A stretch of DNA of 64,000 bases, taken from an uncultured Alphaproteobacteria bacterium. GTDB lineage: Bacteria; Pseudomonadota; Alphaproteobacteria; HIMB59; GCA-002718135. The notes under the pieces are model-generated. The model worked only from the letters and a program-made list of their open reading frames with translations, ran no database searches and was not told the origin of the DNA. Location: NCBI GenBank assembly GCA_902628835.1, contig CACOPD010000001.1:185715-249714 (forward strand), read 5' to 3'. The position numbers were made by a program, and so were the translations under genes. Positions 40,874 through 63,294 of the stretch are shown one piece after another; the first letter of the stretch is position 1, and the number at the start of each line of letters is the position of its first letter.

Positions 40874-40923
40874 ATTATTAAATAAAATATACTTTAAGTA
40901 AAGATGATCAATAAAATTTATAT

Positions 40924-42126: not shown

Positions 42127-42131
42127 ACAAA

Positions 42132-44519: not shown

Positions 44520-45538
44520 GATGTTAGAGCAATACCATCTTTATCAAACCAATGAGCATCATCTAGTTTAAACCCAACCTTAATTGATTGATTGGCCTGA
44601 ATATCAGTTTGATAATTAAGTTTTATTGAAATTTTTTGTTCCCCTGAGGTTGTTCCATACAAAAAACTATCAGATCCTAATTGCTCAACTGTTTCAACAT
44701 TTAGTGATAACGAATTTTCATCTTTAATTGATAGATGCTCAGGTCTTATTCCAAGACTTATTGAGTTAGACGGTGCTATTTCTTTTAAAGAATTTGGAAG
44801 ATAGTCAAATTGTATAAAATTCATTTTTGGTGATCCAATAAAACCGGCTACAAACTTATTAGATGGTTTGTTATATAATTCTAAAGGTGCTCCAACTTGC
44901 TCAATAATACCATCATTCATTACTACAATTTTATCAGCCATTGTCATTGCTTCTACTTGATCATGAGTTACGTAAATCATAGTATTACCTAATCTTGCAT
45001 GTAATGCTTTTAACTCAACTCGCGTTGCAACTCTAAGTTCAGCATCTAAATTAGAAAGTGGTTCATCAAATAAGTATATTGATGGTTCTCTTACTATTGC
45101 TCTACCAATTGCAACTCGTTGTTTTTGTCCACCTGATAATTGACCTGGTTTTCTCTGTAAATATTCTTCCATTCTAAGTAGTCTTGCAGCTTCTAAAATA
45201 CGTTTATCAATTTCATCTACTTCCATTTTTAAGTTTTCCAGTCCAAAAGCTAAATTTTGTCTAACACTCATATGAGGGTACAAAGCATAGGATTGAAAAA
45301 CCATTGCCAAACCTCTTCTTGCTGCAGAAATATTATTTACGACTTGTTGATCGATTAAAATATCACCCTTTGTAATCTGTTCTAATCCAGCAATCATTCT
45401 CAATAATGTAGATTTGCCACATCCTGATGGGCCTACTAATACACAAAACTCTCCATTATTAATAAATAAATCAATGCCATGAATTACTTCCAAGTTTCCA
45501 TAATTTTTTCTTACTTGTTTTAATTCTAATGTTGCCAT
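44516..45538 (-). CDS. Carbohydrate ABC transporter ATPase (MalK-like)
   Basis: GPSGCGKS, VFQSYALYPH, LSGGQ, DEPLSNLD. Confidence 0.96.
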   Translation of the reverse strand: MATLELKQVRKNYGNLEVIHGIDLFINNGEFCVLVGPSGCGKSTLLRMIAGLEQITKGDILIDQQVVNNISAARRGLAMVFQSYALYPHMSVRQNLAFGLENLKMEVDEIDKRILEAARLLRMEEYLQRKPGQLSGGQKQRVAIGRAIVREPSIYLFDEPLSNLDAELRVATRVELKALHARLGNTMIYVTHDQVEAMTMADKIVVMNDGIIEQVGAPLELYNKPSNKFVAGFIGSPKMNFIQFDYLPNSLKEIAPSNSISLGIRPEHLSIKDENSLSLNVETVEQLGSDSFLYGTTSGEQKISIKLNYQTDIQANQSIKVGFKLDDAHWFDKDGIALTS

Positions 45539-45540
45539 AA

Positions 45541-46980
45541 TTATTTAATTCCTGTGTTAGCGATTCCAGTAGTAATATATCGTTGTAGAAAAACAAATAC
45601 TAAAGTAGTTGGTATTAGACTGACAACTGTCATTGCCAATCTGTAATGTTCTTGAGCTACATATTCACCTTGAAAATCTAGAAGACATAATTGAATAGTA
45701 TATGCAGTTTTTGTAGTTGATACTGCTATCATTGGTAGAATTAAATCGTTCCATCGCCAAATAATTGATAAGATTGCAAGAACCGCTATTGCTGGTAATG
45801 CGAGTGGAAAAACTATTCTCCAATAAATACTCCATTCACTAGCAGCATCCATTCTTGCGGCTTCAAGAAGTTCGTCTGGAATAGTTAACATATATTGCCG
45901 TAACATAAATACACCAGTAGGGGTTGCGGCTCCGGGTATAATAACTCCCCATAAAGTTCCATTTAAACCAGTGACAGAAACCATTTTAAATATACCAACA
46001 ATTAAAACCGAAGCTGGAACCATTAGAGTTGCGAGAATAATAATGAAAAATATTATTTGTCCATTGAACTTATATTTTGATAAAGCAAATGCAGCCATTG
46101 AATTTATTAAAACTGTGATTATTGTTGCAATAATTGTTACAAAAACTGAATTGTTCAAACACTTGATTGCATCAAAACTCATACCCCTTACATTATTTGT
46201 TAAAGGGTCAGAATAATTAATCCAAGAAGGTCGAAGTTTTTTATTAACGATTATATCTTCAGTAGGAATCTTAACAATACCACCCTGAGGATTTGAAATT
46301 AGCCTAGCATTAACAGTATCTTTATTTGTGTTTAATCTGCTAACTGAATATTCCTCAATTTCATTAGTTTCTTTATTTTCTGCTGAAATTAAAATTTGAG
46401 AGGTAAATCCATTAGGCTTATAAGGTTTTAAACCAAGAAATTCTGATAAAAGTCTAACTTCCTCTTCATTTAAATTTATTAAATATTCTTCGGGGTTATA
46501 TTCTTTTTTTGCATCAGGAAACATACTTGGATATTTTATTAACCACTCAGGAAATTTTTTTTCTTCGATAAGTTCCTTAGCATGATCAGAAACTAAACCT
46601 AAATGAGTTCTTAAAGCATAATATTCTTTGCCTTCAAATTTTGTAAGGAAAAGATTAGGATCATTAACTTCTTTTTTATCTTCATCTCTCAATTCATTCC
46701 AATATATTACCCAATCTGGAAGATCTTTAATTATAAAAATTTCCTTTCCATCTGGTCCAAAAACTGTTGCTCTTACAACTCTGTCATAATCTAAAGGCAA
46801 TAAGTTAGTATCTAATTTTTGAAGTAAAAACTGAGATTTTATAGAATTTAATAGTAACCACAATACAGGTAAGAAAATGATTAGAAATCCTAAAAAAAGA
46901 TAAAGATAAGCAATCCAATCAATAAAAGAAAGTTTGTTTTTTCCATGGGTTCTCGAAAAAAATTTGATTACAGCGTTCAA
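45541..46980 (-). CDS. Carbohydrate ABC permease (MalG-like) with a large periplasmic insertion
   Basis: EAA loop ELLEAARMDAA, WRWND; about 190-aa soluble insert after TM1; TTG start. Confidence 0.9.
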   Translation of the reverse strand: MNAVIKFFSRTHGKNKLSFIDWIAYLYLFLGFLIIFLPVLWLLLNSIKSQFLLQKLDTNLLPLDYDRVVRATVFGPDGKEIFIIKDLPDWVIYWNELRDEDKKEVNDPNLFLTKFEGKEYYALRTHLGLVSDHAKELIEEKKFPEWLIKYPSMFPDAKKEYNPEEYLINLNEEEVRLLSEFLGLKPYKPNGFTSQILISAENKETNEIEEYSVSRLNTNKDTVNARLISNPQGGIVKIPTEDIIVNKKLRPSWINYSDPLTNNVRGMSFDAIKCLNNSVFVTIIATIITVLINSMAAFALSKYKFNGQIIFFIIILATLMVPASVLIVGIFKMVSVTGLNGTLWGVIIPGAATPTGVFMLRQYMLTIPDELLEAARMDAASEWSIYWRIVFPLALPAIAVLAILSIIWRWNDLILPMIAVSTTKTAYTIQLCLLDFQGEYVAQEHYRLAMTVVSLIPTTLVFVFLQRYITTGIANTGIK

Positions 46981-48032
46981 AGTTTAACCTGCCTTCTAGT
47001 CAGATAAAATTGTAGTAATGATAAAAGAATTAACAATAAAGCAACTAGTAAAGATGCCATGGCAGCAATGCCTAATCCAAAAGTTGTTTTCTGACCTCTT
47101 AAACCAGCTGTTTCAAAAATGTATGAAACTAATGAAATCCAACCAACTTGTAATGCAAATAATTCTTCAAAAGCCTGAAAAGCTTTTATTAAAGATAAAA
47201 CTGTGACAACTAAAAGAATAGGCATTAAAAGAGGAAGAGTAATTCTCCAAAATGCCCTCTGATCTGATGTTCCATCCATTTCTGCAGCTTCATATAAATC
47301 TTTTGGAATTGATTGTAAGCCAGCTAATAAAATTAACATATAAAATCCTAAGTGAGCCCAAGTATAAATAAATACTGACCAAAACATTGTCCATGAAGGA
47401 TCTGTTAACCATTGAATAGGTTGGTCAATCCAATTCCATTCCATTAAAGTTTGAGACAATAATCCTTGTCTTTTTAGAATTAAAGTCCAAAGAAAAGCAA
47501 CTACGACTGGGCTAAGCATGACTGGGTAAAAGTATACGGCTCGCCAAAACGCCCTTCCTACTATTTCTCTATTAAGAACAACTGCTGTTATTAAAGCTAC
47601 CACGATCATTATAGGAACTTGGAATAAGACGAATATGAATGTATCTGCTATTGAAGCTTTAAACTTATCATCCTCCATATTTTCAATACCAGTATCAATT
47701 TGTGTCTCTAAAATTATTCTAGATAAATTATCTGATCCAGAGTAATCTCTTGAAGAAAAGTTAATACTTTCTCCATCAGTTACCGAAAATCCAAAATTCA
47801 TAAAAAGTGGTAAAAAAGTAAAAAGACCAAAAATTAATATATTAGGAAATAAAAACAAGTATGGTAAACTTTTTGTACCACTTAGTCTTTGTGCTAATTC
47901 TATTGGCCATCCAATAACTGACATGAGTCTAGAAATATTTCCAATGACTCCTTTGGATAGTAAAAACCCAATAAACAAATAAATAAATATTACAAAATAC
48001 CAGTAGTTAAAATTTAATAAATTTTCAGACAT
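46977..48032 (-). CDS. Carbohydrate ABC permease (MalF-like)
   Basis: LAGLQSIP..LYEAAEMDG EAA loop. Confidence 0.93.
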   Translation of the reverse strand: MSENLLNFNYWYFVIFIYLFIGFLLSKGVIGNISRLMSVIGWPIELAQRLSGTKSLPYLFLFPNILIFGLFTFLPLFMNFGFSVTDGESINFSSRDYSGSDNLSRIILETQIDTGIENMEDDKFKASIADTFIFVLFQVPIMIVVALITAVVLNREIVGRAFWRAVYFYPVMLSPVVVAFLWTLILKRQGLLSQTLMEWNWIDQPIQWLTDPSWTMFWSVFIYTWAHLGFYMLILLAGLQSIPKDLYEAAEMDGTSDQRAFWRITLPLLMPILLVVTVLSLIKAFQAFEELFALQVGWISLVSYIFETAGLRGQKTTFGLGIAAMASLLVALLLILLSLLQFYLTRRQVKL

Positions 48033-48040
48033 TAATTTAA

Positions 48041-48067
48041 CTAAGGCCGATTTTAAATCGGCCTTAG
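48041..48067. terminator. Intergenic GC-rich hairpin between SBP and permease genes
   Basis: CTAAGGCCGATTT-T-AAATCGGCCTTAG perfect 13-bp inverted repeat. Confidence 0.65.
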
Positions 48068-48076
48068 AATTAAAAT

Positions 48077-49327
48077 TTATTCAGCAATCTTCGCAGCTAC
48101 ATCTGCATCAATTGCTGCCAAAGCTTCGTCAAGAGTCATCTCTCCTGTAATTGCTTTAGTGATATAGTCAGGAACAATCCCATATATTGCAAAGTTTTTA
48201 TTATAACCTTGGAACCAATAAGCTTGAGGGGTTGTATCAGCCGCTTTTCCTGCATTTGCTGCGAAAATTGCAAGACCTTCCGCAACATTTGGACTTACAC
48301 CAGCATAATCAATACCAGATTTTTGTAAGCCTTGGTGAGCTGTAATATTACTTGTTGCTGCAGCAAATTTTTCTGCGTTGTCAGTTTGTGACATAAAATC
48401 AATAAATGAAGCAGCAGCTTCAGGATTATTAGTAGACTTAAAAGCCACTATTCCAGATCCACCTGGCATAGCACCACATCCACCAGGGCCACATGGAATC
48501 GGCACAACTTTCCACTCAAAATCTGTAATATTAGTATCATAGTTTCCAAGCATCCAAGAGCCAGACATATGCATAGCAACTGTTCCATCTAAGAATAAAG
48601 GAGCTGCATTTTTATATGCTGTTCCTGATCCAGCAGGCCATCCTTCTGCAGGCATTAAACCTTCTTTATGCCAACCAACAAATACCTCAGAAAATTTTCT
48701 AAATCCTTCATCAACTAAAATTGGTGTTCCATTTTCGTGAAACTTTGCTCCATAAGAAAAAGCTGGACCTGCCCATCTATGAGCAGTTCTATCTAAAGCC
48801 AAACCTGCAGTTAAACCAAGTTCTGATTTTACTTGTCTTAAAGCATCAGCCCAATCATCCCATGTAGCACCTTCTTCAGGCATATCTACACCTGCATCTT
48901 CAAACATTGTAACATTTACATAAGGTCCTGTAACAGTTAATTGAGTTTGCCAACCGTAAATACCATCGTCACCTGAAGGTTTTCTGTACCAAGGAAGTGT
49001 TGCGCCATAATTTGCTTCCCAATATGAAGAATCAACATAAGGCTTAAGATCTAAATAGAATTTATTTAATCCTCCTAAATTTGTTACTCTAGCCAAATCT
49101 GGTGCAGCACCTGATTCTAATTGATTTTCTAGTTGTTCTCTTATTACTTCATATCCAACTGTTTCAATATTTAATGTATGACCAGTTGATGCTTCCCATG
49201 ACTTAGCCATGTCTGCAATAGTATCACATTCATTAATATCCTGATAACATATGAACTTCAATTCTGCTGAATTTGCAGTAAATGAAGCTGAAGTAACAAA
49301 AAGAAAAATAGCTAATATTCTTTTCAT
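48077..49327 (-). CDS. Carbohydrate ABC substrate-binding protein (family 1; resembles AguE-type uronide binders)
   Basis: Signal peptide, APDLARV, ATWDDW, SGSW; GGAGG RBS; the AguE resemblance is from memory only. Confidence 0.88.
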   Translation of the reverse strand: MKRILAIFLFVTSASFTANSAELKFICYQDINECDTIADMAKSWEASTGHTLNIETVGYEVIREQLENQLESGAAPDLARVTNLGGLNKFYLDLKPYVDSSYWEANYGATLPWYRKPSGDDGIYGWQTQLTVTGPYVNVTMFEDAGVDMPEEGATWDDWADALRQVKSELGLTAGLALDRTAHRWAGPAFSYGAKFHENGTPILVDEGFRKFSEVFVGWHKEGLMPAEGWPAGSGTAYKNAAPLFLDGTVAMHMSGSWMLGNYDTNITDFEWKVVPIPCGPGGCGAMPGGSGIVAFKSTNNPEAAASFIDFMSQTDNAEKFAAATSNITAHQGLQKSGIDYAGVSPNVAEGLAIFAANAGKAADTTPQAYWFQGYNKNFAIYGIVPDYITKAITGEMTLDEALAAIDADVAAKIAE

Positions 49328-49495
49328 AATTCCTCCATTTAAATTTAATAAAATATTGATAACACGAACCCATACGAATTCAAAAAAAAATTAATATAAT
49401 TTATAAGAAAATTAGTGATTATTTATATAATTAGTCTTTGAATTTTTTTATTTTCATGGTTTGAGAGAAAATTATTAACTATAGTTGAAATAATA

Positions 49496-50863
49496 ATGAT
49501 TGGATACCTGGGATTAGCACGAGAGACTTTTGATGTACCTTTTGCAATGTCTAAGTTTTTAGAAGGTAAAAAAGTTCTACGAAATATATTTACTGAAATA
49601 AAAGGAATTGATTATTTAATTACTAATAATGAATTATCAGATAAAGCATTTAAATATTTTAAAGATAATAATTTTAAAAAAATTATAATTTTTCAAACTA
49701 CATTTACAGATGCAAAATTTTTACTACACTTTGCTAGAAAGATAAATAAATCTTTGTGTATCGTTGCCTTTCCAGAACCACGAACTGGAAAGAGATTAAG
49801 ACTTAATTCAGTATGTGGATTAAATTTAGGAATGCACTCATTAATTAAAAATAATATTAATGCTGAATTCATATTATATAATAATCATAAAGACGTAGAA
49901 AAAAAAATTAAAAAATTTATTAATAAAAAAATTTATAGCAATAAAATAATTGAATGGAAACAGATTAGAAAAAAAAGTAATAAAAAAATAGATATAAAGA
50001 AACAAAAAATTGGACTTGTTGGTGAAAGACCTGAAGGTTTTGATACATGTGATTATTCATTATTAGAAGTTAGGAAAAAATTAAATTTTGATATTAAAAA
50101 AATAAAATTAAATGAACTATTCTCAGAAGCTAAAAAAATTAAAAAGTCAGTTTTAAATTCAACACAAATAAAAATTGAGAAAAATTTGAAGAATTCAAAA
50201 AAATTAAATCAATATGAATTAAAAAAAAGTATTTCAATATACCATGGATTAAATACACTGCACACAAAACACGATGTTCAAGCATTTGCAGTTAGATGTT
50301 GGCCAGAAATGTTTACACAATTTGGTTGTGCTTCTTGTGGTCCTATGGCTATGATGAATGAAAAAAAAATTAGCAGTGCTTGCGAAGCAGACGTTTTAGG
50401 AGGAATAAGTTGCAACATATTAAACCAATTAAACAATCAACCTTCTTTACTAGTGGATATTGTCGATATAGATGAAAAAGATAATTCTGTTGTTTTTTGG
50501 CATTGTGGGCTAGCGCCTCTTAGCATGTCTAAAAAAGGTGATGCAAAAGCGGATATACATTCTAATAGAAAAAAACCGCTACTTCACAATTTTGCTTTTA
50601 AACCTGGAGATATAACAATATTCAGAGTTTCAAAATCAGCAAGCAAATTAAAATTTTTTGTACTTAAGGGGAAAGTGATCAATAGGAAAAATTCATTTGC
50701 AGGAACTTCAGGTGTGGTCAGTTTTGGCAAAAATACAAAAAATAAAATAGAAAAAATGTTTAAAGGTGGACTTGAACATCACGTTGCTTTTACTTATGGT
50801 GACTATTATAACGAAATTGTTAATCTAGGTAATCAAATGAAAATTCCAACATACACAGTATGA
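49496..50863 (+). CDS. L-fucose/L-arabinose isomerase-family protein; candidate sulfoquinovose isomerase (SqvD-like)
   Basis: AVRCWPE, ACEADVLG, FWHCG and LEHH motifs; ATGA-coupled to the GH188-like gene. Confidence 0.75.
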   Translation: MIGYLGLARETFDVPFAMSKFLEGKKVLRNIFTEIKGIDYLITNNELSDKAFKYFKDNNFKKIIIFQTTFTDAKFLLHFARKINKSLCIVAFPEPRTGKRLRLNSVCGLNLGMHSLIKNNINAEFILYNNHKDVEKKIKKFINKKIYSNKIIEWKQIRKKSNKKIDIKKQKIGLVGERPEGFDTCDYSLLEVRKKLNFDIKKIKLNELFSEAKKIKKSVLNSTQIKIEKNLKNSKKLNQYELKKSISIYHGLNTLHTKHDVQAFAVRCWPEMFTQFGCASCGPMAMMNEKKISSACEADVLGGISCNILNQLNNQPSLLVDIVDIDEKDNSVVFWHCGLAPLSMSKKGDAKADIHSNRKKPLLHNFAFKPGDITIFRVSKSASKLKFFVLKGKVINRKNSFAGTSGVVSFGKNTKNKIEKMFKGGLEHHVAFTYGDYYNEIVNLGNQMKIPTYTV

Positions 50864-51960
50864 GCAAAAGTTTTAAATATGGGATAATAGGCGCTGGATC
50901 AATGGGTCGCGAACATATCAGAAATGTCAATATAATTGATAGAGCAGAAATTGTTGCTTTAAGTGATCCAAATAATGAATCAATTAATCAATCTTTATCG
51001 TTACTTAATAAAAAAGTTCCATGTTTTACAAACTATAATGAAATGATACAAGCTGATCTTGTTGATGGGTACATAATCTCTACTCCCAATTTTACTCACA
51101 TAGATGTATTAAAAGATGTAGTTAAAACAAAGAAACATATCCTAGTAGAAAAGCCGTTATGTACAACAATTAAAGATTGTATCGAATTCAGAGATTTAAC
51201 TAAAAATTATCCAGGTTTAATTTGGACCGCAATGGAATATAGATATATGCCCCCTGTAAAAAGAATGATTGATGAAATTCATAATAAAACAATTGGTAAT
51301 TTAAAAATGTTATCAATTAGAGAACACCGATTTCCTTTTTTAGTTAAGGTGAATAACTGGAATCGATTTGCAGAAAATACAGGAGGCACATTAGTTGAAA
51401 AATGCTGTCATTTTTTTGATCTAATGAGGTTAATTGTGAATAGTGAAGCGAAACAAGTTTATGCAAGTGGCAATCAAGATGTTAATCATTTAAATGAAAA
51501 ATATAACAATAAAACTCCTGATATTCTTGATAATGCCTATGTAATTGTTGATTTTCAAAATGGAGTTAGAGCTTTGCTTGATCTCTGTATGTTTGCTGAA
51601 AACTCAACAAATCAAGAGGAGTTATGTGCAGTTGGAGATATCGGTAAAATTGAAACTGCTGTACCTTCAGCTAGTTCAGGTAAAAACTCATCTGAATTAA
51701 GGATTGGATATCGAGGAAGAAATTTTGAAAATGGAAAAACTCTTAATGAGCTTGTGGAAGTTGATGAAGAGATTTTAAAAGTAGGAAATCATCATGGCTC
51801 TACATATTATGAGCATATTTCATTTCTTGATTCTATTAAAAACTCTAAACCAGCTGCTGTAAGTCTAAATGATGGTTTACAAGCAGTTGCTATTGGTGAA
51901 GCTGCCGAAATTTCTATAAAAGAAAATAGAATTGTGAGAATGGATGAATTTAAAATTTAA
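50860..51960 (+). CDS. Gfo/Idh/MocA-fold protein; probable NAD+-dependent sulfoquinovosidase (GH188/SqgA-like)
   Basis: GAGSMG, EKP, MEYRY, REHRFPFLVKV, EKCCHFFD, GNHHGSTY; sulfonate gene context. Confidence 0.82.
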   Translation: MSKSFKYGIIGAGSMGREHIRNVNIIDRAEIVALSDPNNESINQSLSLLNKKVPCFTNYNEMIQADLVDGYIISTPNFTHIDVLKDVVKTKKHILVEKPLCTTIKDCIEFRDLTKNYPGLIWTAMEYRYMPPVKRMIDEIHNKTIGNLKMLSIREHRFPFLVKVNNWNRFAENTGGTLVEKCCHFFDLMRLIVNSEAKQVYASGNQDVNHLNEKYNNKTPDILDNAYVIVDFQNGVRALLDLCMFAENSTNQEELCAVGDIGKIETAVPSASSGKNSSELRIGYRGRNFENGKTLNELVEVDEEILKVGNHHGSTYYEHISFLDSIKNSKPAAVSLNDGLQAVAIGEAAEISIKENRIVRMDEFKI

Positions 51961-51962
51961 AA

Positions 51963-52886
51963 TTAAGAAAAAAATTCGTTTGTTTTATTCATAATAAACT
52001 CACTTACTCTTGTATTGGATTCTTCTGTAACTCCTGCATTATGAGGTGATAAAATACAATTCATATCATTTGTAATACTTTTTAAAAATATTTTGTTTAC
52101 TGGCTCATGTTCATAAACATCTAATGCAAATCCTGAAATATAATTATTATTATATGCTTCAAGAAGATCAATTTCTTTTATAATTCCTCCCCTAGAAGAA
52201 TTAATTATAATTGGCTTATTATTCATTTTTTGAAATATTTTTTTATCAAATAAATATTTCGTTTCGTTATTTAATGGTACATGTATAGAAATTATATCAG
52301 CTAAATAAAGAATATTTTCAAAAGTTACTTTTTTAACATTATTTTCTTCCATTTCTTGAGAGGTTATAAAAGGATCAAATGCAATAGTAGTAACTTCAAA
52401 AGCATTTATAAGCTTTAAAACTTTTTTTGCTATATGACCAAATCCTATTAGTCCTAAAATTTTTCCCTTTAACTCATTCGTAGTAATTGACGTTCTAGGC
52501 CATTGTCCACTTTGTGTTTTTGCATTTATTAACTTTGTTTTCTTTAATAGGCTAAGTGAAGAGCTTATTACATATTCTGCTACAGAGTCAGCATTCATCC
52601 CAGTAGCTGGTTGAACAAATATATTATTTTGTTTACAGTATTCAGTGTCAATATTATCTAGACCTACACCAAGTCTACCAATGTACTTTAAATTTTCTGC
52701 TTTCTCTAAGATAGATTTATTTAAATTTGTTTTATTTCTTACAATTATTCCATCAAATTTATTAATTTCTTTTTTTAAATAATTAGAATTTTCCCAAATA
52801 TCTTTTTTATAGATTACATTAAAATCTTTACTTAATATTTTTAATGCTTCTTGATCTATAAATTCTGTAATTAAAATATTTATCAT
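51963..52886 (-). CDS. D-2-hydroxyacid dehydrogenase family; probable (S)-sulfolactate dehydrogenase (SlcC-like)
   Basis: ILITEFID start, VRNKT, GRLGVGLDNID, GFGHIA, SPHNAGVTEESNTRVS; same operon as comDE. Confidence 0.75.
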   Translation of the reverse strand: MINILITEFIDQEALKILSKDFNVIYKKDIWENSNYLKKEINKFDGIIVRNKTNLNKSILEKAENLKYIGRLGVGLDNIDTEYCKQNNIFVQPATGMNADSVAEYVISSSLSLLKKTKLINAKTQSGQWPRTSITTNELKGKILGLIGFGHIAKKVLKLINAFEVTTIAFDPFITSQEMEENNVKKVTFENILYLADIISIHVPLNNETKYLFDKKIFQKMNNKPIIINSSRGGIIKEIDLLEAYNNNYISGFALDVYEHEPVNKIFLKSITNDMNCILSPHNAGVTEESNTRVSEFIMNKTNEFFS

Positions 52887-53791
52887 TTAATTTTACTAAT
52901 TTTTATTTTTTTTGAAAATTTATTAACTAAACTAATTGTAGGTATTGAATATATGCCCCCTCTTTGCATACATTTTAAAGTTGCAGCAGCAGATGCAAAA
53001 ATAATACTTTCTATATTTGATTTATTTAGAGATAAGGCTGATGCGAAAGCTCCATGAAATACATCTCCTGCACAATTTGTTTCAACTGTTTTAACATTTG
53101 GAATTTTACAGTGATACAATGAATTGTTATCTACCCAAAGAACACCTTGGGAACCTATTGTAACTGCTACAAATTTTTGTGTTTCATTAAATATTTCAAA
53201 AAGAGCAGTTTTCATATTTGAATTTCGCTTATATGTTTTTAAACCCTCTTCAGAAAATATGGGATGGGAAGCATTTTTAACAATTTGAGATATATGTGAT
53301 GTTTTTTTAAAATTATCTAAATCAGCAACACATTTAATATTATTTTTGTTAGTCTTTTTGGCAATTTGAGTAGCTATTCTAATCCACCTCATATCTACTG
53401 CATAAATATCTTTTTTTCTAAAATCTAAATTTGGTATTTTCTTATAATTAAGTAACTTTGGATCATTATAAGCAGCTAGCAATCTTTCACCATTTATATC
53501 TTCAATTACAAAACTTTGGGAAGATTTACATTTTTTTATTGAAATAGATTTATTGATATTAATTTTAAATTTTTTAAATTCATTTTTTAAGAAAACAGAA
53601 GTGTCATCATCTCCAAATTTTCCAATAAATTCAGTATCACATCCCAATTTTTTAGCAGTAAATGCTGATACTGCTGCCGAACCGCCTAACCTTTTATCAA
53701 TACCTTTAGATAAAACTTTAATTGGTTTTTTTGGAAACTGATCTATCCTACTTATATTATCTAAAAATATTGATCCTACACAAATGATCAT
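52883..53791 (-). CDS. PfkB kinase; probable sulfofructose kinase (YihV-like)
   Basis: CVG..LD, FIGKFGDDD, KSSQS, DMRW, FSEEGL, AGDVFHGA and LKC..GG match E. coli YihV as recalled. Confidence 0.78.
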   Translation of the reverse strand: MIICVGSIFLDNISRIDQFPKKPIKVLSKGIDKRLGGSAAVSAFTAKKLGCDTEFIGKFGDDDTSVFLKNEFKKFKININKSISIKKCKSSQSFVIEDINGERLLAAYNDPKLLNYKKIPNLDFRKKDIYAVDMRWIRIATQIAKKTNKNNIKCVADLDNFKKTSHISQIVKNASHPIFSEEGLKTYKRNSNMKTALFEIFNETQKFVAVTIGSQGVLWVDNNSLYHCKIPNVKTVETNCAGDVFHGAFASALSLNKSNIESIIFASAAATLKCMQRGGIYSIPTISLVNKFSKKIKISKIK

Positions 53792-53801
53792 AAATATTTA
53801 T

Positions 53802-54371
53802 TTAGAGGTATTTAACTATACCTATAAACTTTCTAAATCTATCTCTGATCGTTATAGGGTTTAGAGGAATTGGATCAATTTTGACATTCCCAGAATTAAT
53901 TTTAGAGATAATTACGTAAGAATTATTTTGATCTTCAATAGCTTTTGATAATTCATTTACTGTTTCATCTCCAGAACATTCAACTACATTTTTACAACCA
54001 GCGCCTATTGCAACATCTTTTAAAGAGGTATTTTCATCAGTAAAAGTCCTTTGATCTCCTGTTGATCCATATGATCCATTATCAATAATTAATAATGTAT
54101 AATTTGATGGTGCTCTATTACCAATTGTTGCTAATGTATTCATATTCATTAAAACAGATCCATCACCATCTATACTAATAACATGTTTGTTTTGAGATAA
54201 TGACAAGCCCAAACCGATAGAAGAAGACAAACCCATACTGCCTAACATATAAAAAAAGTTTGGTTGATCATTAATTTTATATAATTCTTGAGATGGAAGA
54301 CCTATATTACAAATAACTAAGTTATCTTTAAGAATATTTTGTATTTTATTTAATAAGTCAAAGCGGTTCAT
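53802..54371 (-). CDS. comE: Sulfopyruvate decarboxylase beta subunit
   Basis: NIGLPSQELY, YMLGSMG, TPP motif GDGS...N, DNGSYGSTG. Confidence 0.85.
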   Translation of the reverse strand: MNRFDLLNKIQNILKDNLVICNIGLPSQELYKINDQPNFFYMLGSMGLSSSIGLGLSLSQNKHVISIDGDGSVLMNMNTLATIGNRAPSNYTLLIIDNGSYGSTGDQRTFTDENTSLKDVAIGAGCKNVVECSGDETVNELSKAIEDQNNSYVIISKINSGNVKIDPIPLNPITIRDRFRKFIGIVKYL

Positions 54372-54868
54372 TTATCATCTTTCATTAAATTGAAATCACA
54401 TAATATAGCAACTGGTGACTCAACAACTTTAGCATGTTTGCTAAATGTTGAAATTTTCTCAAGATCATTTTCTGAAGAACAATGCAACATAGGTATTCTT
54501 AAAGTTTGTAAAATATCTTCAGTTATTTTAGCCATTCCACCTTGTGCTCCTACTGGCTCACCTGGTGTACCTCTGTAACTAATTAGAAATACAACAGGCA
54601 TTTGATATAATTGTAATAAAGAAACAATTGCATTCACTGAATTTCCTATTCCTGTATTCTGCATCATTATACAAGGGAATTTGTTTCCTAAATAAGCTCC
54701 AGCACAGATACCCATACCTTCTTCCTCACGTGGTACAGCAGAATAGTAAACATCCTTATCTTTTTCAAGAATATCAATCATGTTAGCTAATAACTTACAA
54801 GGAACACTTAAGTAAAAATCTACACCACCCTTTTTTAAATTATCGATAATTTTTTTACTGATTTTCAT
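54368..54868 (-). CDS. comD: Sulfopyruvate decarboxylase alpha subunit
   Basis: SVPC, REEEGMGICAG, MQNTGIGN, SYRG; ATGA-coupled to comE. Confidence 0.85.
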   Translation of the reverse strand: MKISKKIIDNLKKGGVDFYLSVPCKLLANMIDILEKDKDVYYSAVPREEEGMGICAGAYLGNKFPCIMMQNTGIGNSVNAIVSLLQLYQMPVVFLISYRGTPGEPVGAQGGMAKITEDILQTLRIPMLHCSSENDLEKISTFSKHAKVVESPVAILCDFNLMKDDK

Positions 54869-54914: not shown

Positions 54915-55967
54915 TTATTTAAAATCATTTCTTAATTTTATTTTAGTGTTTGAAGTATATTTTTCACCTTTTTTTAATATAGTTGATGGAAAATTTGGTT
55001 GATTAATAGCATCGGGGAAAATTTGTGTCTCTAAACACATTCCATATTGTAAACCATAATTTCTATCATGTTTTCCGTTGTATGACTCCTTCATCATGTT
55101 ACCGGTATAAAATTGTATTCCAGGTTGATCAGTTGAGTATTCTACTCCCATGCCGGTACTTTTACTATAAATGGAAGCTATAGATTTATCAATTGAATGA
55201 TTTTTAAGAACATAATTATGATCGATCCCACCACTGTCTAAAAAAGTATTATTTATTTCAAACGAATTATTTAGATCATATTTTGTATTAACTACATCTA
55301 ATAGCTTGCCTGTAGGGATTGAGCCTTCATCAGTTTCACAAATTTGACTAGATGATATTTTAACAACATGTTCTGTAATATTTTTGTAATTATCTTTATG
55401 ACCATGAAAGTTCCAATAATTATGATTAGTTATATTAACAATAGTATCTTGATCTGTAGTAGCATGAAAAGAAATTAACATTTCGTTGTTATTATTTAAC
55501 TCGTAAATAGTTTTACAATCTAAGTTGCCAGGATAATTTTCTTCTAAATGATTAGAATAGTAAGTGAGCTCTACTTTTATGCTGTCACTTTTTTTATTTA
55601 TATTAGCTATTTGCCAAATCTTTTTATTGAAACCTTCTTTTCCACCATGAAGATGATCAGGAGCTGTGTTAGGATATAAATTATAATCCTCCCCATTAAG
55701 ACTAAATTTACTTTGCCCTATTCTATTACAAACTCTTCCAATAATTGAATTGAAATATCCATGAGCTTCCAGGCAATCATCTAAATTACCATAACCTAAT
55801 AATACGTCCTCTGTTTCAGAGTCATTAGAAGAAGTTGGAATACATACTTCACTTATATAGCCACCATATGTATAAAAGCTAAAACTGTAATTATTTGAGT
55901 TAATAATATTGACTATATCAATATCTAAACCTTTATCATTTTGAAGTTTGGTAATTTTATATTCCAT
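54915..55967 (-). CDS. Aldose 1-epimerase (GalM-type mutarotase), candidate SQ mutarotase
   Basis: IGRVCNRI, HLHGG, TNHNYWN, QFYTGN, CLETQ. Confidence 0.9.
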   Translation of the reverse strand: MEYKITKLQNDKGLDIDIVNIINSNNYSFSFYTYGGYISEVCIPTSSNDSETEDVLLGYGNLDDCLEAHGYFNSIIGRVCNRIGQSKFSLNGEDYNLYPNTAPDHLHGGKEGFNKKIWQIANINKKSDSIKVELTYYSNHLEENYPGNLDCKTIYELNNNNEMLISFHATTDQDTIVNITNHNYWNFHGHKDNYKNITEHVVKISSSQICETDEGSIPTGKLLDVVNTKYDLNNSFEINNTFLDSGGIDHNYVLKNHSIDKSIASIYSKSTGMGVEYSTDQPGIQFYTGNMMKESYNGKHDRNYGLQYGMCLETQIFPDAINQPNFPSTILKKGEKYTSNTKIKLRNDFK

Positions 55968-56866
55968 TATGTTTTTCTTAATCTTTGAAAATTATTTTTT
56001 CTTTGTTGAAGATAAATGATTAATCCACCTAAAACTATGAAAAAAGTACCTGGAAAGAGTTGGTCAACTGGCCATTCTGCAAAAAATATCCAACCTAAAA
56101 TAAGTGCAAAAAATATTTCAATGTAATCAAATGGCATAATTTTACTAAGTTCTGCTTTTCTAGCACCGTAGATTAATAATAAAGTTCCAGATCCTCCTGC
56201 AATTCCCATAACACAAACTAATAAGAAATCATTTATACTTTTAAAATTTTCCCACATACCAAAAAACATTACTAACATACATGCAACTATGATTGTCCCT
56301 GTTTGACCATATAAGTTAATAAGTGGTGAAGGAACATGATACTGAAAACTTAAAGAAGTTACCCTTGCTAACGAATATCCTAAAGCAGCAAGTATAGGAA
56401 GTAGTAGCATATAATTAAAATCTGATGACCAAGGTTGCATAATTAAAACGATACCTGCAAAACCAGAAATTACTGCACTCATTTTGTACCAACCAAATTT
56501 TTCACCTAGTATAGGAATAGCAAGAAGAGTAACCATCATAGGTCCTGTGTATTCCATGGTAGCCACTAAAGCAAATGGGAGGTAAGCATAAGAAGTGTAG
56601 AGACACAATTGTGCCAAGGCTACAAAAACTCCACGAAATAATCCTAGCTTCCATTGTGTTATTTTTATTTGTCTACCGTTTCGGTGCCAATCTTGTGAAA
56701 AATATAGAGCAATAACACATGGGATCATCCCAAATAAATTTCGAAAGACAGAAAGTTGAGCTGCTGGATAGTCATTTCGCAAAAACTTTATCGCAATGCC
56801 CATACAATCTAATAAAAATAGACCTGAGAGAGATAGAATTACTGCAATTAATAAATTGTTCTTCAA
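55967..56866 (-). CDS. DMT/EamA family transporter
   Basis: About 10 TM segments, LGEK, PFDY; TTG start overlapping the upstream TGA. Confidence 0.87.
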   Translation of the reverse strand: MKNNLLIAVILSLSGLFLLDCMGIAIKFLRNDYPAAQLSVFRNLFGMIPCVIALYFSQDWHRNGRQIKITQWKLGLFRGVFVALAQLCLYTSYAYLPFALVATMEYTGPMMVTLLAIPILGEKFGWYKMSAVISGFAGIVLIMQPWSSDFNYMLLLPILAALGYSLARVTSLSFQYHVPSPLINLYGQTGTIIVACMLVMFFGMWENFKSINDFLLVCVMGIAGGSGTLLLIYGARKAELSKIMPFDYIEIFFALILGWIFFAEWPVDQLFPGTFFIVLGGLIIYLQQRKNNFQRLRKT

Positions 56867-57855: not shown

Positions 57856-57857
57856 AG

Positions 57858-58838: not shown

Positions 58839-58839
58839 A

Positions 58840-61003: not shown

Positions 61004-61039
61004 ATTTAATAATTAGGAGACAAGAATAATTAAAAAAAG

Positions 61040-61068
61040 AAAAGCGGCAATATATAATTGCCGCTTTT
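61040..61068 (-). terminator. Rho-independent terminator-like hairpin after the SBP gene
   Basis: AAAAGCGGCAAT-ATATA-ATTGCCGCTTTT, followed on the - strand by a long U tract (61032-61043). Confidence 0.75.
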
Positions 61069-61089
61069 TCTATTATTTATTGAGTTAAA

Positions 61090-63262: not shown

Positions 63263-63293
63263 TTGACGAAATACTTTAGGTTATGGCTAAATT
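63263..63293 (+). promoter_or_regulatory. Possible sigma70 promoter for the hydrolase gene
   Basis: TTGACG at 63263, 17-bp spacer, GCTAAATT resembling the alphaproteobacterial -10 GCTANA; would give a nearly leaderless mRNA at ATG 63295. Confidence 0.4.
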
Positions 63294-63294
63294 T

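What the first reader, a model, noticed from the sequence alone, without database searches (positions are those of the whole stretch)
50860..51960. 'Oxidoreductase' with the GH188 NAD+-dependent sulfoquinovosidase signature
Seen: Tyr127 (MEYRY), Arg157/Leu161/Lys163 (HRFPFLVK) and His311-312 (GNHHG). Known (recalled, needs confirming): SqgA-type GH188 enzymes bind the sulfonate with an R-xxx-L-x-K triad and use a Tyr/His pair with about this spacing. Standard pipelines would probably call it inositol dehydrogenase. This gene anchors the SQ interpretation.
Basis: partly seen in the sequence, partly recalled or inferred. Interest (0 to 1): 0.75.

Follow-up and report, generated by a model that had tools for sequence, protein, structure and literature searches.

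The report
Known-type NAD-dependent sulfoquinovosidase gene (SqgA)
This gene, which databases label only as a generic oxidoreductase, is a clear member of the published enzyme family that cuts the abundant algal sulfur-sugar sulfoquinovose free from its lipid remnant, here in a small-genome open-ocean bacterium that reviews do not yet count among its consumers.

Summary
ORF 50860..51960 (+, 366 aa) carries every residue it named at exactly those positions. It also has the other residues that contact sulfoquinovose (SQ) in the ArSqgA crystal complex, so all 8 are identical. Its best solved relatives are the three characterised GH188 enzymes (E 1e-109 to 4e-91; next hit 3e-27). A confident model (pLDDT 95.6) superposes on them at TM 0.92-0.95, with 41-47% identity. 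None of 6 Gfo/Idh/MocA paralogs in the same genome has the sulfonate Arg/Lys pair.

The gene is translationally coupled to an SftI/SqvD-type SQ isomerase. It lies beside a YihV-like sulfofructose kinase, a phosphoglycerate-dehydrogenase-like enzyme and an ABC sugar importer. This block is a present-or-absent cassette, inserted next to conserved sulfopyruvate decarboxylase genes; Xsc lies 26 kb away. No dedicated aldolase was found.

The family is published, and its member list already holds marine MAGs, including one Pelagibacterales entry. So this is a new member of a known kind. This scan has reported the same cluster type before on other genomes. The modest new points are the cassette behaviour and the 41-42% identity to RdSqgA, which is below the 54% cut-off used in a recent ocean survey.

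The parts
50860..51960 (+). sqgA: GH188 NAD+-dependent sulfoquinovosidase (366 aa). It has the Rossmann motif GAGSMG at 11-16, and the residues Lys98, Tyr127, Arg157, Leu161, Lys163, Glu180, His184 and His311.
   Evidence: ORF; residues. Pfam PF01408 plus PF02894. PDB phmmer: 8qc3 2.7e-109, 8qc2 1e-107, 8zn9 3.9e-91, next hit 3ezy 2.8e-27. Model pLDDT 95.6. Foldseek top 12 hits are all SqgA structures, TM 0.92-0.95.
49496..50863 (+). SftI/SqvD-type (L-fucose-isomerase-like, PF02952) putative sulfoquinovose isomerase. Its stop codon overlaps the sqgA start (ATGA).
   Evidence: NCBIfam NF048012 sulfoquinovose isomerase SftI: E 7.7e-85, 285 bits over the full length, but below the 700-bit equivalog cut-off, and it is the only family hit. 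Pfam PF02952. Overlap. It sits next to sqgA in 9 of 11 relatives' loci; the other 2 are cut by contig or locus ends. No solved relative.
52883..53791 (-). YihV-like PfkB-family kinase, putative 6-deoxy-6-sulfofructose kinase.
   Evidence: Best PDB hit is 7ag6 sulfofructose kinase at 2.7e-42, next 1.3e-26. It is 34% identical to annotated E. coli YihV over 292 aa, E 5e-50. Over the 36 genus genomes it co-occurs with sqgA: both 20, sqgA only 3, kinase only 1, neither 12.
51963..52886 (-). Short D-3-phosphoglycerate-dehydrogenase-type 2-hydroxyacid dehydrogenase. I infer it is a sulfolactate/sulfopyruvate dehydrogenase.
   Evidence: Pfam PF02826 and PF00389. Best PDB hit is 1wwk phosphoglycerate dehydrogenase, 3e-47. 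It is present beside sqgA in 11 of 11 loci and missing together with sqgA in 4 of 4 loci without sqgA. A gene of the same type is reported in uncharacterised GH188 clusters (PMC11465081). The substrate is an inference.
44516..49327 (-). CUT1-type ABC sugar importer, divergent from sftI-sqgA: solute-binding protein 48077-49327, permeases 46977-48032 and 45541-46980, UgpC/MalK-like ATPase 44516-45538. I infer it takes up sulfoquinovosyl-glycerol or SQ.
   Evidence: Pfam and NCBIfam. It is part of the present/absent cassette. The binding protein has only generic sugar-binding relatives in the PDB, with no SmoF-type hit at E<=1e-3, so the substrate is not shown.
53802..54868 (-). comE (53802-54371) and comD (54368-54868): sulfopyruvate decarboxylase beta and alpha subunits. 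They belong to the conserved backbone, not to the cassette.
   Evidence: TIGR03846 at 223.6 bits (cut-off 221.5) and TIGR03845 at 161.7 bits (cut-off 147.95), both above cut-off. They are also present in the 4 genus genomes whose locus lacks sqgA.
54915..56866 (-). Aldose 1-epimerase (54915-55967), a possible SQ mutarotase, and an EamA/DMT transporter (55967-56866). Both are backbone genes.
   Evidence: Pfam PF01263 and PF00892. The epimerase has generic galactose mutarotase relatives and no BLASTP hit to E. coli YihR at 1e-3. Both genes are present without the cassette in 3 of 4 loci; the fourth is cut by the contig end.
39440..44519 (-). Outer part of the cassette in this genome and its closest relatives only: GH31 glycosidase (42132-44519), a 400-aa protein with a faint uronate-isomerase likeness (40924-42126), and a mannitol-dehydrogenase-family reductase (39440-40873). 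I do not assign these to SQ.
   Evidence: Pfam and NCBIfam. The GH31's best solved relatives are alpha-glucosidases (6e-51), with YihQ only 4.4e-23. Aligned to E. coli YihQ, the two catalytic Asp are kept but 0 of 4 Q/E-RWY positions are (motif from PMC12780224). It is found in the close loci L001 and L010 and not in the 8 divergent sqgA loci.

Best explanation
The gene encodes an SqgA-type (CAZy GH188) NAD+-dependent sulfoquinovosidase. By analogy with the solved enzymes, tightly bound NAD+ transiently oxidises C3 of a sulfoquinovoside. Tyr127 then removes the C2 proton, the aglycone (glycerol, for sulfoquinovosyl-glycerol) is eliminated with help from His311/His184, water adds back, and NADH re-reduces C3. 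Free SQ is released with no net redox change. Arg157, Lys163 and the backbone NH of Leu161 hold the 6-sulfonate and give the specificity. In the cell it is the gateway step of a hybrid sulfo-EMP-type route. An ABC importer takes up the glycoside and SqgA frees SQ. The co-translated SftI/SqvD-type isomerase makes sulfofructose, and the YihV-like kinase phosphorylates it. An aldolase that I could not identify would then give DHAP plus sulfolactaldehyde. After oxidation to sulfolactate, the phosphoglycerate-dehydrogenase-like enzyme would make sulfopyruvate, ComDE would make sulfoacetaldehyde, and Xsc would make acetyl phosphate plus sulfite. What is shown: family membership, residue identity, fold, gene linkage and co-occurrence. 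What is inferred: catalytic activity, the substrate of the importer and of the dehydrogenase, and the aldolase and aldehyde-oxidation steps.
For: Sequence: E 2.7e-109, 1e-107 and 3.9e-91 to ArSqgA, FlSqgA and RdSqgA, against 2.8e-27 for the next solved protein. The PDB codes are tied to these enzymes by the papers' data statements and text. Residues: 8 of 8 SQ-contacting residues of the ArSqgA.NAD.SQ complex are identical. The 7 residues listed for RdSqgA (K98, Y127, R156, L160, K162, E179, H183) sit in columns of the 8zn9 alignment whose window residues are identical; this mapping is read off the alignment by a one-residue offset and was not checked against the entry's own numbering. Fold: AlphaFold2 model with pLDDT 95.6 and pTM 0.93. 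The Foldseek top 12 hits are all SqgA chains (TM 0.92-0.95 on the query, rmsd 1.4-1.8 A for most, 41-47% identity); the next entry is 3ezy at TM 0.78 and 24% identity. Specificity control: 0 of 6 own-genome paralogs have the Arg/Lys pair. Across the family, Arg157 plus Lys163 occur in 73 of 78 full-length representatives, in line with the published 98.3% and 96.7% (PMC11465081, whole text read). Asp36, at the position that usually marks NAD over NADP preference (established Rossmann-fold knowledge), is present in 90% or more of the 44 aligned sequences. Context: ATGA coupling to an SftI-like isomerase; YihV-like kinase; the same neighbours in 11 of 11 relatives' loci; sqgA and kinase co-occurrence of 20 both, 3 and 1 singly, 12 neither; ComDE above their equivalog cut-offs; Xsc at 953 bits (cut-off 676) on the same contig about 26 kb past the window end, plus a Pta-like gene. 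Contigs from 4 of 4 seawater RNA libraries (4 studies) match parts of the gene at 93-99%, which is consistent with transcription but does not prove it.
Against: No enzyme assay exists for this protein or for any relative above 47% identity. The dbCAN/CAZy GH188 model could not be run. No NCBIfam model names the protein, and all 8 NCBIfam hits are below their cut-offs. The pathway is incomplete. No YihT-type or SqiA-type aldolase is in the cassette. The LacD-like aldolase on contig C6 is only 20% identical to YihT and occurs in only 4 of 36 genus genomes, against 23 with sqgA. The second class II aldolase sits in an inositol (iol) cluster. No sulfolactaldehyde dehydrogenase was identified. ComDE, the epimerase and the EamA gene persist in genomes whose locus lacks sqgA, so they are not specific partners. 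The binding protein shows no likeness to the solved SQGro-binding protein type. The RNA evidence comes from assembled contigs, which may include DNA carry-over.
Confidence: 0.88

Rival explanations
1. It is a GH188-fold enzyme that acts on a related but different sulfonated glycoside (for example another 6-sulfo-hexoside, or beta-linked SQ in glycans) rather than on sulfoquinovosyl-glycerol.
For: Identity to the characterised enzymes is only 41-47%. The cassette's importer has no likeness to known SQGro-binding proteins. The paper notes that these enzymes are not anomer-specific (Discussion passage). Other sulfosugar routes exist (sulfofucose; PMC12421959, search listing only).
Against: All residues that contact O1-O4 and the sulfonate of SQ are identical. 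The next enzyme is an SftI-type SQ isomerase homolog and the kinase is YihV-like. Eukaryotic SqgA homologs at 31-47% identity to RdSqgA still have SQase activity according to PMC12780224 (Discussion passage).
Confidence: 0.07
2. It is an ordinary NAD-dependent sugar or inositol dehydrogenase (net oxidation, no glycoside cleavage), as a generic annotation would suggest.
For: Pfam sees only the generic Gfo/Idh/MocA domains. The best NCBIfam match is inositol 2-dehydrogenase. An oxidation-only outcome cannot be excluded from sequence alone.
Against: The iolG score of 121 bits is far below the 355-bit cut-off. Solved inositol dehydrogenases score E 1e-15 or worse, against 1e-109 for SqgA, and TM is 0.83 or less against 0.95. 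The genome's real iol genes are elsewhere, on contig C6. The sulfonate triad is absent from all 6 paralogs.
Confidence: 0.03
3. The gene is a decaying or non-functional passenger of a variable genomic island.
For: It lies in a block that is absent from 4 of 4 examined loci of genus relatives without sqgA. Its sequence differs much more between relatives than the flanks do.
Against: The frame is intact here and in all 25 matches listed in relatives (no internal stops). All functional residues are kept. Both divergent cassette types keep the same gene order. RNA-library contigs match the gene.
Confidence: 0.02

Closest known systems
ArSqgA (Arthrobacter sp., PDB 8QC3/8QC5/8QC6) and FlSqgA (Flavobacterium sp. 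K172, PDB 8QC2/8QC8); Kaur et al. 2023, PMC10755693 (passages and supplement file 2 read)
   Same: Same two-domain Gfo/Idh/MocA fold (TM 0.94-0.95, rmsd 1.4-1.7 A). 46-47% identity over the full length. All eight SQ-contacting residues are identical. It sits in a sulfo-EMP-type neighbourhood with an SF kinase and an ABC transporter.
   Different: The host is a streamlined, roughly 29% GC marine alphaproteobacterium rather than a soil bacterium. The isomerase partner is the fucose-isomerase type (PF02952). No aldolase is linked. The C3 sulfonate appears to go on to ComDE/Xsc rather than being excreted.
RdSqgA of Roseobacter denitrificans OCh 114 (PDB 8ZN9); Ma et al. 2025, PMC12780224 (passages read; supplements searched by term)
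   Same: A marine GH188 enzyme. The listed residues K98, Y127, R156, L160, K162, E179 and H183 all have identical counterparts here. TM 0.92.
   Different: Only 41-42% identity. RdSqgA sits by a sulfo-SMO (monooxygenase) cluster with a TRAP transporter, whereas here the context is sulfo-EMP-like with an ABC importer. That paper counted prokaryotic sqgA in Tara data with a 54% identity cut-off, which this protein would not pass (my inference).
Uncharacterised GH188 'Tyr-variant' gene clusters of Actinobacteria bacterium IMCC26103 and Clavibacter sp.; Backlund & Higgins 2024, PMC11465081 (whole text read)
   Same: The same gene set surrounds the GH188 gene: fucose-isomerase-type gene, SF kinase, D-3-phosphoglycerate-dehydrogenase-type gene and ABC transporter (one search compared).
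   Different: The window protein has the canonical Leu161, not Tyr. Those clusters carry sulfolactate sulfo-lyase (SuyAB), and one has an SFP aldolase and an SLA dehydrogenase. Here the desulfonation end is ComDE plus an unlinked Xsc, and no aldolase is linked.
Hybrid sulfo-EMP1/2 sulfoglycolysis clusters; Sharma et al. 2023, PMC10665668 (passages read)
   Same: A mosaic of Pfam types: PF02952 isomerase (EMP2-type) with PF00294 kinase and PF01263 mutarotase (EMP1-type), as that paper describes for hybrid clusters.
   Different: That survey was anchored on SFP aldolases (PF01791 or PF01116) in the cluster. This cassette has none, so it would not have been retrieved by that approach (inference).
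GH109 and GH4 NAD+-dependent glycosidases
   Same: The same kind of chemistry: transient C3 oxidation by bound NAD+ followed by elimination and re-addition (PMC10755693 passages).
   Different: About 15% identity for GH109 according to that paper. The sulfonate loop and Tyr placement differ. GH4 needs Mn2+. The window protein is not a member of either family.

Membership tests
CAZy GH188 (SqgA, NAD+-dependent sulfoquinovosidase) | Gfo/Idh/MocA two-domain architecture with an N-terminal Rossmann NAD-binding domain | tested here: met
   PF01408 (residues 5-116) plus PF02894 (139-359). GAGSMG at 11-16. The model's secondary structure and pLDDT 95.6.
CAZy GH188 (SqgA, NAD+-dependent sulfoquinovosidase) | Sulfonate-binding triad Arg166 / Leu170 (backbone NH) / Lys172 (ArSqgA numbering) | tested here: met
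   Arg157, Leu161 and Lys163 sit in the aligned columns. The triad is defined in PMC10755693 and is 96-98% conserved in the family (PMC11465081). It is absent from 6 of 6 paralogs in the same genome.
CAZy GH188 (SqgA, NAD+-dependent sulfoquinovosidase) | Catalytic and sugar-binding residues Lys107, Tyr136, Glu189, His193, His321 | tested here: met
   Lys98, Tyr127, Glu180, His184 and His311 are identical in the alignment to 8qc3_A.
CAZy GH188 (SqgA, NAD+-dependent sulfoquinovosidase) | Closer in sequence and fold to characterised SqgA enzymes than to any other Gfo/Idh/MocA enzyme | tested here: met
   phmmer gives 1e-109 to 4e-91 for SqgA against 3e-27 for the next protein. Foldseek ranks 1-12 are all SqgA, TM 0.92-0.95, against 0.83 or less for the others.
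CAZy GH188 (SqgA, NAD+-dependent sulfoquinovosidase) | Score above threshold with the curated CAZy/dbCAN GH188 HMM | not testable with these tools
   No CAZy or dbCAN library is offered. Pfam and NCBIfam hold no SqgA-specific model that matched.
CAZy GH188 (SqgA, NAD+-dependent sulfoquinovosidase) | NAD+-dependent, redox-neutral hydrolysis of SQ glycosides | not testable with these tools
   This needs a biochemical assay with pNP-SQ or SQGro and the recombinant protein.
CAZy GH188 (SqgA, NAD+-dependent sulfoquinovosidase) | Location in an SQ catabolic gene cluster that lacks a classical GH31 sulfoquinovosidase (the 'complementary distribution' of Kaur et al.) | tested here: met
   The neighbours are an SftI-like isomerase and a YihV-like kinase. 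The cassette does hold a GH31, but that GH31 has 0 of 4 Q/E-RWY positions of EcYihQ and is closer to alpha-glucosidases. Whether it belongs to the SqgH clade could not be tested, because no SqgH sequence was available.
Sulfo-EMP pathway (EMP1, EMP2 or hybrid; Sharma et al. 2023) | SQ isomerase (PF07221 or PF02952) and SF kinase (PF00294 or PF00365) in one cluster | tested here: met
   PF02952 with the SftI model at 285 bits. PF00294 with YihV as best solved relative, at 34% identity.
Sulfo-EMP pathway (EMP1, EMP2 or hybrid; Sharma et al. 2023) | SFP aldolase (class I PF01791 YihT-type or class II PF01116 SqiA-type) in the cluster | tested here: not met
   There is none in the window. The genome has two PF01791 and two PF01116 genes elsewhere: a DeoC equivalog, a LacD-like aldolase (20% identical to YihT, present in 4 of 36 genus genomes), a 357-aa class II aldolase, and one inside an iol cluster. 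None is linked to sqgA. I therefore describe the cassette as working like a sulfo-EMP route and do not file it as a complete one.
Sulfo-EMP pathway (EMP1, EMP2 or hybrid; Sharma et al. 2023) | Sulfolactaldehyde reductase (YihU) or dehydrogenase (SlaB/GabD) | tested here: inconclusive
   A YihU-like reductase lies on contig C6 (38% identity, E 8e-75; best PDB hit 6sm7), but it is unlinked and its distribution was not tested. Aldehyde dehydrogenases exist in the genome, but none could be assigned.

The most novel reading that the evidence does not exclude
A streamlined, abundant open-ocean alphaproteobacterial lineage is a primary consumer of sulfoquinovosyl-glycerol. Earlier notes of this scan label the lineage HIMB59/AEGEAN-169; I did not verify that label. 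The capacity sits on a swappable cassette (importer, SqgA, SftI-type isomerase, YihV-like kinase, PGDH-like sulfolactate dehydrogenase). This cassette plugs into a resident ComDE/Xsc sulfonate module, so that one small cell takes SQ all the way to sulfite. Current ocean budgets would miss this group, because its SqgA is only 41-42% identical to the Roseobacter query used with a 54% cut-off.
Probability: 0.45. Interest if true: 0.6.

Novelty: new member of a known kind. Interest (0 to 1): 0.33.

Why it matters
[quoted passage not shown] Recent marine work credits its first breakdown step mainly to Roseobacteraceae and Alteromonadaceae, and treats Pelagibacter-type oligotrophs as users of the small sulfonates left over (PMC12780224, PMC13436972; passages read). 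A correctly annotated SqgA with isomerase and kinase partners was found in 23 of 36 sampled genomes of one streamlined genus. Close matches also turn up in seawater RNA libraries. This suggests that part of the oligotrophic open-ocean community can open SQ glycosides itself. Practically, it argues for counting sqgA in metagenomes with a profile plus the Arg/Leu/Lys residue filter rather than a high identity cut-off. As an enzyme it is an ordinary family member and adds no new chemistry.

Tried and rejected
1. GH31 as a second, classical SQase: rejected for the YihQ type. Alpha-glucosidases are much closer, 0 of 4 Q/E-RWY positions are kept, and the gene is missing from the 8 divergent sqgA loci. 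The SqgH type was not testable.

2. The LacD-like aldolase plus YihU-like reductase on contig C6 as the missing sulfo-EMP steps. The reductase looks right. However, solved YihT is not among the aldolase's PDB hits at E<=1e-5, the aldolase is 20% identical to E. coli YihT, and it occurs in only 4 of 36 genus genomes. I reject it as the general aldolase.

3. The class II aldolase at G000:C6:71475-72287 lies between IolB-like and IolC-like genes, so I read it as an inositol-pathway aldolase.

4. The short FSA/TalC-type transaldolase on C8 as an SftT-like sulfofructose transaldolase. This is possible, but the enzyme is unlinked and of the housekeeping type, and the cassette's kinase argues for the phosphorylating route. 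Left open.

5. The binding protein against solved SQGro-binding proteins: no such hit.

6. The epimerase against YihR: no BLASTP hit at 1e-3, only generic mutarotase relatives.

7. Promoter and terminator scan of 49250-52100: fewer promoter-like sites than in shuffles (11 against 19.5) and no terminator. Uninformative.

8. Depth differences between genes in the RNA-library contigs were not used, because contigs cannot rank expression.

9. A first MAFFT run timed out and was repeated with faster settings.

10. Literature searches. 'HIMB59' with 'sulfoquinovos' gave 0 papers. 'AEGEAN-169' with 'sulfoquinovos' gave 3 papers; I read the passages of one of them and they do not link the two. 'SAR11' or 'Pelagibacter' with 'sulfoquinovose' gave no paper, among the listings and passages I read, that reports an SQase in these groups. 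The supplements of PMC12780224 hold none of the terms Pelagibacter, SAR11, HIMB, Thioglobus or SftI; one PDF of pictures could not be read.

11. Lineage name: my own calls give only 'uncultured Alphaproteobacteria bacterium' record titles and coded families. The HIMB59 label comes from earlier scan notes and I did not test it.


Full report
**Observation.** The window holds an intact ORF at 50860..51960 on the + strand (366 aa). Translating it shows MEYRY at 125-129, HRFPFLVK at 156-163 and GNHHG at 309-313. The protein also has a GAGSMG Rossmann motif at 11-16, Lys98 in an EKP motif, Glu180 and His184. The window has about 29% G+C throughout.

**What the protein is.** Pfam sees only the generic Gfo/Idh/MocA N- and C-terminal domains. 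NCBIfam has no model that names it. The best hit, inositol 2-dehydrogenase, scores 121 bits against a 355-bit cut-off, and all 8 hits are below their cut-offs. Against all PDB chains, the three best matches are 8qc3 (E 2.7e-109), 8qc2 (1e-107) and 8zn9 (3.9e-91), each over essentially the full length. The next protein, 3ezy, is at 2.8e-27, and inositol dehydrogenases are at 1e-15 or worse.

The data-availability statement of Kaur et al. 2023 (PMC10755693, passages read) identifies 8QC3/8QC5/8QC6 as ArSqgA and 8QC2/8QC8 as FlSqgA, the founding NAD+-dependent sulfoquinovosidases of CAZy family GH188. Ma et al. 2025 (PMC12780224, passages read) deposited 8ZN9 and describe a 1.8 A crystal structure of RdSqgA from Roseobacter denitrificans.

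[quoted passage not shown] His321 contacts O1, Tyr136 contacts O2, His193 and Lys107 contact O3, and Glu189 contacts O4. In the HMMER alignment, a single offset (chain number minus 13) reproduces all eight author numbers. They fall on Lys98, Tyr127, Arg157, Leu161, Lys163, Glu180, His184 and His311 of the window protein, and all are identical. The residues listed for RdSqgA (K98, Y127, R156, L160, K162, E179, H183) match as well.

As a negative control I aligned the six other Gfo/Idh/MocA paralogs of the same genome. All 6 keep the generic Lys98, and none has Arg157 together with Lys163.

I then scored the protein against 1.84 billion cluster representatives. This gave 288 proteins at E<=1e-30 and 2621 at E<=1e-10. 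Of the best 150 listed, I aligned the 78 that are at least 330 aa long and left out the 72 shorter fragments. Of those 78, 73 have Arg157 plus Lys163 and 46 have the whole eight-residue set. Most of the rest differ at Tyr127, Leu161 or His311, mainly among the lower-scoring rows. This agrees with Backlund & Higgins 2024 (PMC11465081, whole text read), who report R166, L170 and K172 in 98.3%, 96.0% and 96.7% of GH188 sequences.

**Fold test.** An AlphaFold2 model built on a 44-sequence alignment has mean pLDDT 95.6 and pTM 0.93. In Foldseek against the PDB, ranks 1-12 are all SqgA chains. Query-normalised TM is 0.92-0.95 (0.87 for one shorter chain), and rmsd is 1.4-2.0 A. Identity is 46-47% to FlSqgA and ArSqgA and 41-42% to RdSqgA. 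The next entry, 3ezy, has TM 0.78 and 24% identity. Sequence, residues and fold therefore agree. The curated GH188 HMM and an enzyme assay are the two defining tests I could not run.

**Neighbourhood.**
- The upstream gene (49496..50863) ends in the sqgA start codon (ATGA).
- That gene is a full-length match to the NCBIfam SftI sulfoquinovose-isomerase model. It scores E 7.7e-85 and 285 bits, which is below the 700-bit equivalog cut-off, and SftI is the only family hit. It also carries the Pfam fucose-isomerase C-terminal domain PF02952.
- Convergent with sqgA are a short D-3-phosphoglycerate-dehydrogenase-type enzyme (best PDB 1wwk, 3e-47) and a PfkB kinase.
- The kinase's best solved relative is E. 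coli sulfofructose kinase YihV (7ag6, 2.7e-42, next 1.3e-26). It is 34% identical to annotated YihV.
- Further on are ComE and ComD, both above their sulfopyruvate-decarboxylase equivalog cut-offs, then an aldose 1-epimerase and an EamA transporter.
- Divergent from the isomerase is a CUT1-type ABC sugar importer.
- Beyond the importer are a GH31 glycosidase, a protein with faint uronate-isomerase likeness, a mannitol-dehydrogenase-family enzyme and UxuA.
- In the terms of Sharma et al. 2023 (PMC10665668, passages read), the set is a mosaic. It has an EMP2-type isomerase (PF02952) with an EMP1-type kinase (PF00294) and mutarotase (PF01263).
- Backlund & Higgins describe the same combination (fucose isomerase, SF kinase, D-3-phosphoglycerate dehydrogenase, ABC transporter) around uncharacterised Tyr-variant GH188 genes.

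**Relatives and the cassette.** Thirteen loci in the species-representative genome collection encode a 95-99% identical protein. All are titled 'uncultured Alphaproteobacteria bacterium isolate AG-...'. The window's own assembly is 1.48 Mb in 28 contigs and 84% complete.

Among 36 other sampled genomes of the same genus, 23 have a match at E<=1e-40. These fall in two tiers, at 97-99% and 58-67% identity. None of 24 genomes of a second family in the same order has a match. These assemblies are 55-89% complete, so a miss is not absence.

I examined 11 loci, 8 divergent and 3 close. The isomerase sits directly upstream of sqgA in 9; the other 2 are cut by a contig or locus end. The dehydrogenase-kinase-ComE-ComD-epimerase-EamA row follows in 11 of 11.

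Amino-acid identity to the window falls steadily from the flank into the cassette. It is 80-97% for EamA, 86-98% for ComD, 79-97% for ComE, 53-78% for the kinase and 56-73% for the dehydrogenase. It drops to 60-64% for SqgA, 55-57% for the isomerase and 36-47% for the binding protein.

In four genus genomes without an sqgA match, the ComE locus shows agmatinase (or agmatinase-UxuA) lying 17-126 bp from ComE. Everything from 39440 to 53791 of the window is missing there. So sqgA belongs to a present-or-absent, fast-diverging cassette. ComDE, the epimerase and EamA are resident backbone genes.

Over the 36 genomes, sqgA and the YihV-like kinase occur together in 20. SqgA occurs alone in 3, the kinase alone in 1, and neither in 12. 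The four singletons lie near contig ends. Kin are not independent, so this is descriptive only.

**Rest of the pathway.** Xsc (953 bits, cut-off 676) lies on the same contig about 26 kb beyond the window end. A phosphate-acyltransferase-like gene lies in between, and a TauE-family sulfite exporter is at window 72-881.

What I could not find is the aldolase. The genome has two PF01791 and two PF01116 genes:
- a DeoC equivalog;
- a LacD-like aldolase next to a YihU-like reductase;
- a 357-aa class II aldolase;
- a class II aldolase inside an iol cluster.

The YihU-like reductase is convincing (6sm7 at 2.8e-61; 38% identical to YihU). Its aldolase neighbour is not YihT-like, and it occurs in only 4 of 36 genus genomes. 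No sulfolactaldehyde dehydrogenase could be assigned. I therefore describe the cassette as working like a hybrid sulfo-EMP route that feeds a ComDE/Xsc desulfonation end. The steps between sulfofructose phosphate and sulfolactate are inferred.

**The GH31.** Kaur et al. stress that GH188 genes occur in clusters lacking a GH31 sulfoquinovosidase. Here a GH31 sits in the same cassette. Its nearest solved relatives are alpha-glucosidases and glucosyltransferases (6e-51 to 1e-48), with YihQ at 4.4e-23. Aligned to annotated E. coli YihQ, it keeps both catalytic Asp residues but none of the four Q/E-RWY positions (Q288, R301, W304, Y508; motif from PMC12780224; alignment, at 24% identity, so the columns are approximate). 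It is also absent from the 8 divergent sqgA loci. So I see no conflict with the published pattern. Membership of the SqgH clade could not be tested.

**Expression.** Eighteen listed public runs hold part of the sftI-sqgA stretch, 14 of them RNA libraries. I laid four seawater or aquatic metatranscriptome runs from four studies. All four have contigs at 93-99% likeness on parts of sqgA, the isomerase and the binding-protein gene. These are assembled contigs, so they show presence in RNA libraries. They do not show transcript ends, strand or level.

**Novelty.** The enzyme family, its mechanism and its signature are published. The GH188 member list of Kaur et al. (supplement file 2) already contains SAR116, Candidatus Thioglobus, unclassified Alphaproteobacteria and one 'Pelagibacterales bacterium' entry. 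The gene is therefore a new member of a known kind.

This scan has also reported the same cluster type before on other genomes. Those are AI notes, and I used them as leads only. One gave me the Sharma 2023 reference, which I then read. The HIMB59/AEGEAN-169 label in those notes and in a note on this genome was not tested here.

Three points seem not to be in print. I base this on searches, on the passages read, and on the term search, in which one picture-only supplement could not be read.
- Reviews place Pelagibacter-type oligotrophs downstream of Roseobacter and Alteromonas in SQ cycling.
- The Tara survey of Ma et al. used a 54% identity cut-off to RdSqgA, which this 41-42% identical clade would fail. 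That it would fail is my inference.
- The cassette behaviour beside a resident ComDE module is not described.

**Verdict.** My confidence that this is a functional SqgA-type sulfoquinovosidase is about 0.88. Interest is modest. This is a sound re-annotation with some ecological relevance, not a new kind of system.

Noticed in passing
window 39440-53791: This 14.3-kb block is an insertion/deletion polymorphism within the genus. It runs from the mannitol-DH-family gene through the GH31, the ABC importer, sftI, sqgA and the dehydrogenase to the kinase. In 4 genomes without sqgA, agmatinase(/UxuA) abuts ComE within 17-126 bp. Identity to relatives falls stepwise from the flank (ComD 86-98%) into the block (binding protein 36-47%), which looks like a recombination-prone variable island.
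   Followed up: partly
window 38263-44519: GH31, a 400-aa protein with faint uronate-isomerase likeness (NF002794, E 7e-4), a fructuronate/tagaturonate-reductase-like gene and UxuA lie together. This could be a route for an alpha-linked uronate glycoside (for instance the headgroup of glucuronosyl lipids). That is pure speculation. The GH31 substrate is unknown.
   Followed up: no
L020:15287-16060, L021:3018-3791, L022:3018-3791, L026:3021-3794, L010:16295-17068, L011:6814-7587: Several relatives carry an extra Gfo/Idh/MocA paralog (about 26% identical to SqgA) between the EamA gene and the Opp ATPase genes. The window has no gene there (EamA 55967-56866 abuts the ATPase gene at 56863).
   Followed up: no
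G000:C6:15256-18067 (L031:4257-7068): A YihU-like sulfolactaldehyde-reductase homolog (38% identical to E. coli YihU), a LacD-like class I aldolase and a DhaK-like kinase subunit sit in a row next to an enolase-superfamily dehydratase. The aldolase is found in only 4 of 36 genus genomes. The function is unclear. It could be a second, DHPS-forming branch or an unrelated sugar route.
   Followed up: partly
L029:148-1467 (G000:C1:269862-271181): A HisD-family dehydrogenase (430 bits to the hisD domain model) lies about 4 kb from Xsc. HpsN (DHPS dehydrogenase) is a HisD paralog by my recollection, so this could be either true HisD or a DHPS-oxidising enzyme.
   Followed up: no
window 63283-63999, continuing in L028:72-830: A sulfatase-family gene (PehA-like phosphoric/sulfuric ester hydrolase, below its cut-off) runs off the window end, just past the large SBP_bac_5/Opp-type transporter operon (56863-63144).
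   Followed up: no
window 48394-49378: In 3 of the 4 RNA-library runs, the contigs on the cassette's solute-binding-protein gene have far higher word depth (about 26-125) than those on sqgA (about 1-20). Contigs cannot rank expression, so I only note it.
   Followed up: no
window 72-881: A TauE/SafE-family sulfite exporter gene lies 50 kb upstream of the cassette. This fits a cell that releases sulfite from sulfonates, but it is not linked to the cassette.
   Followed up: no
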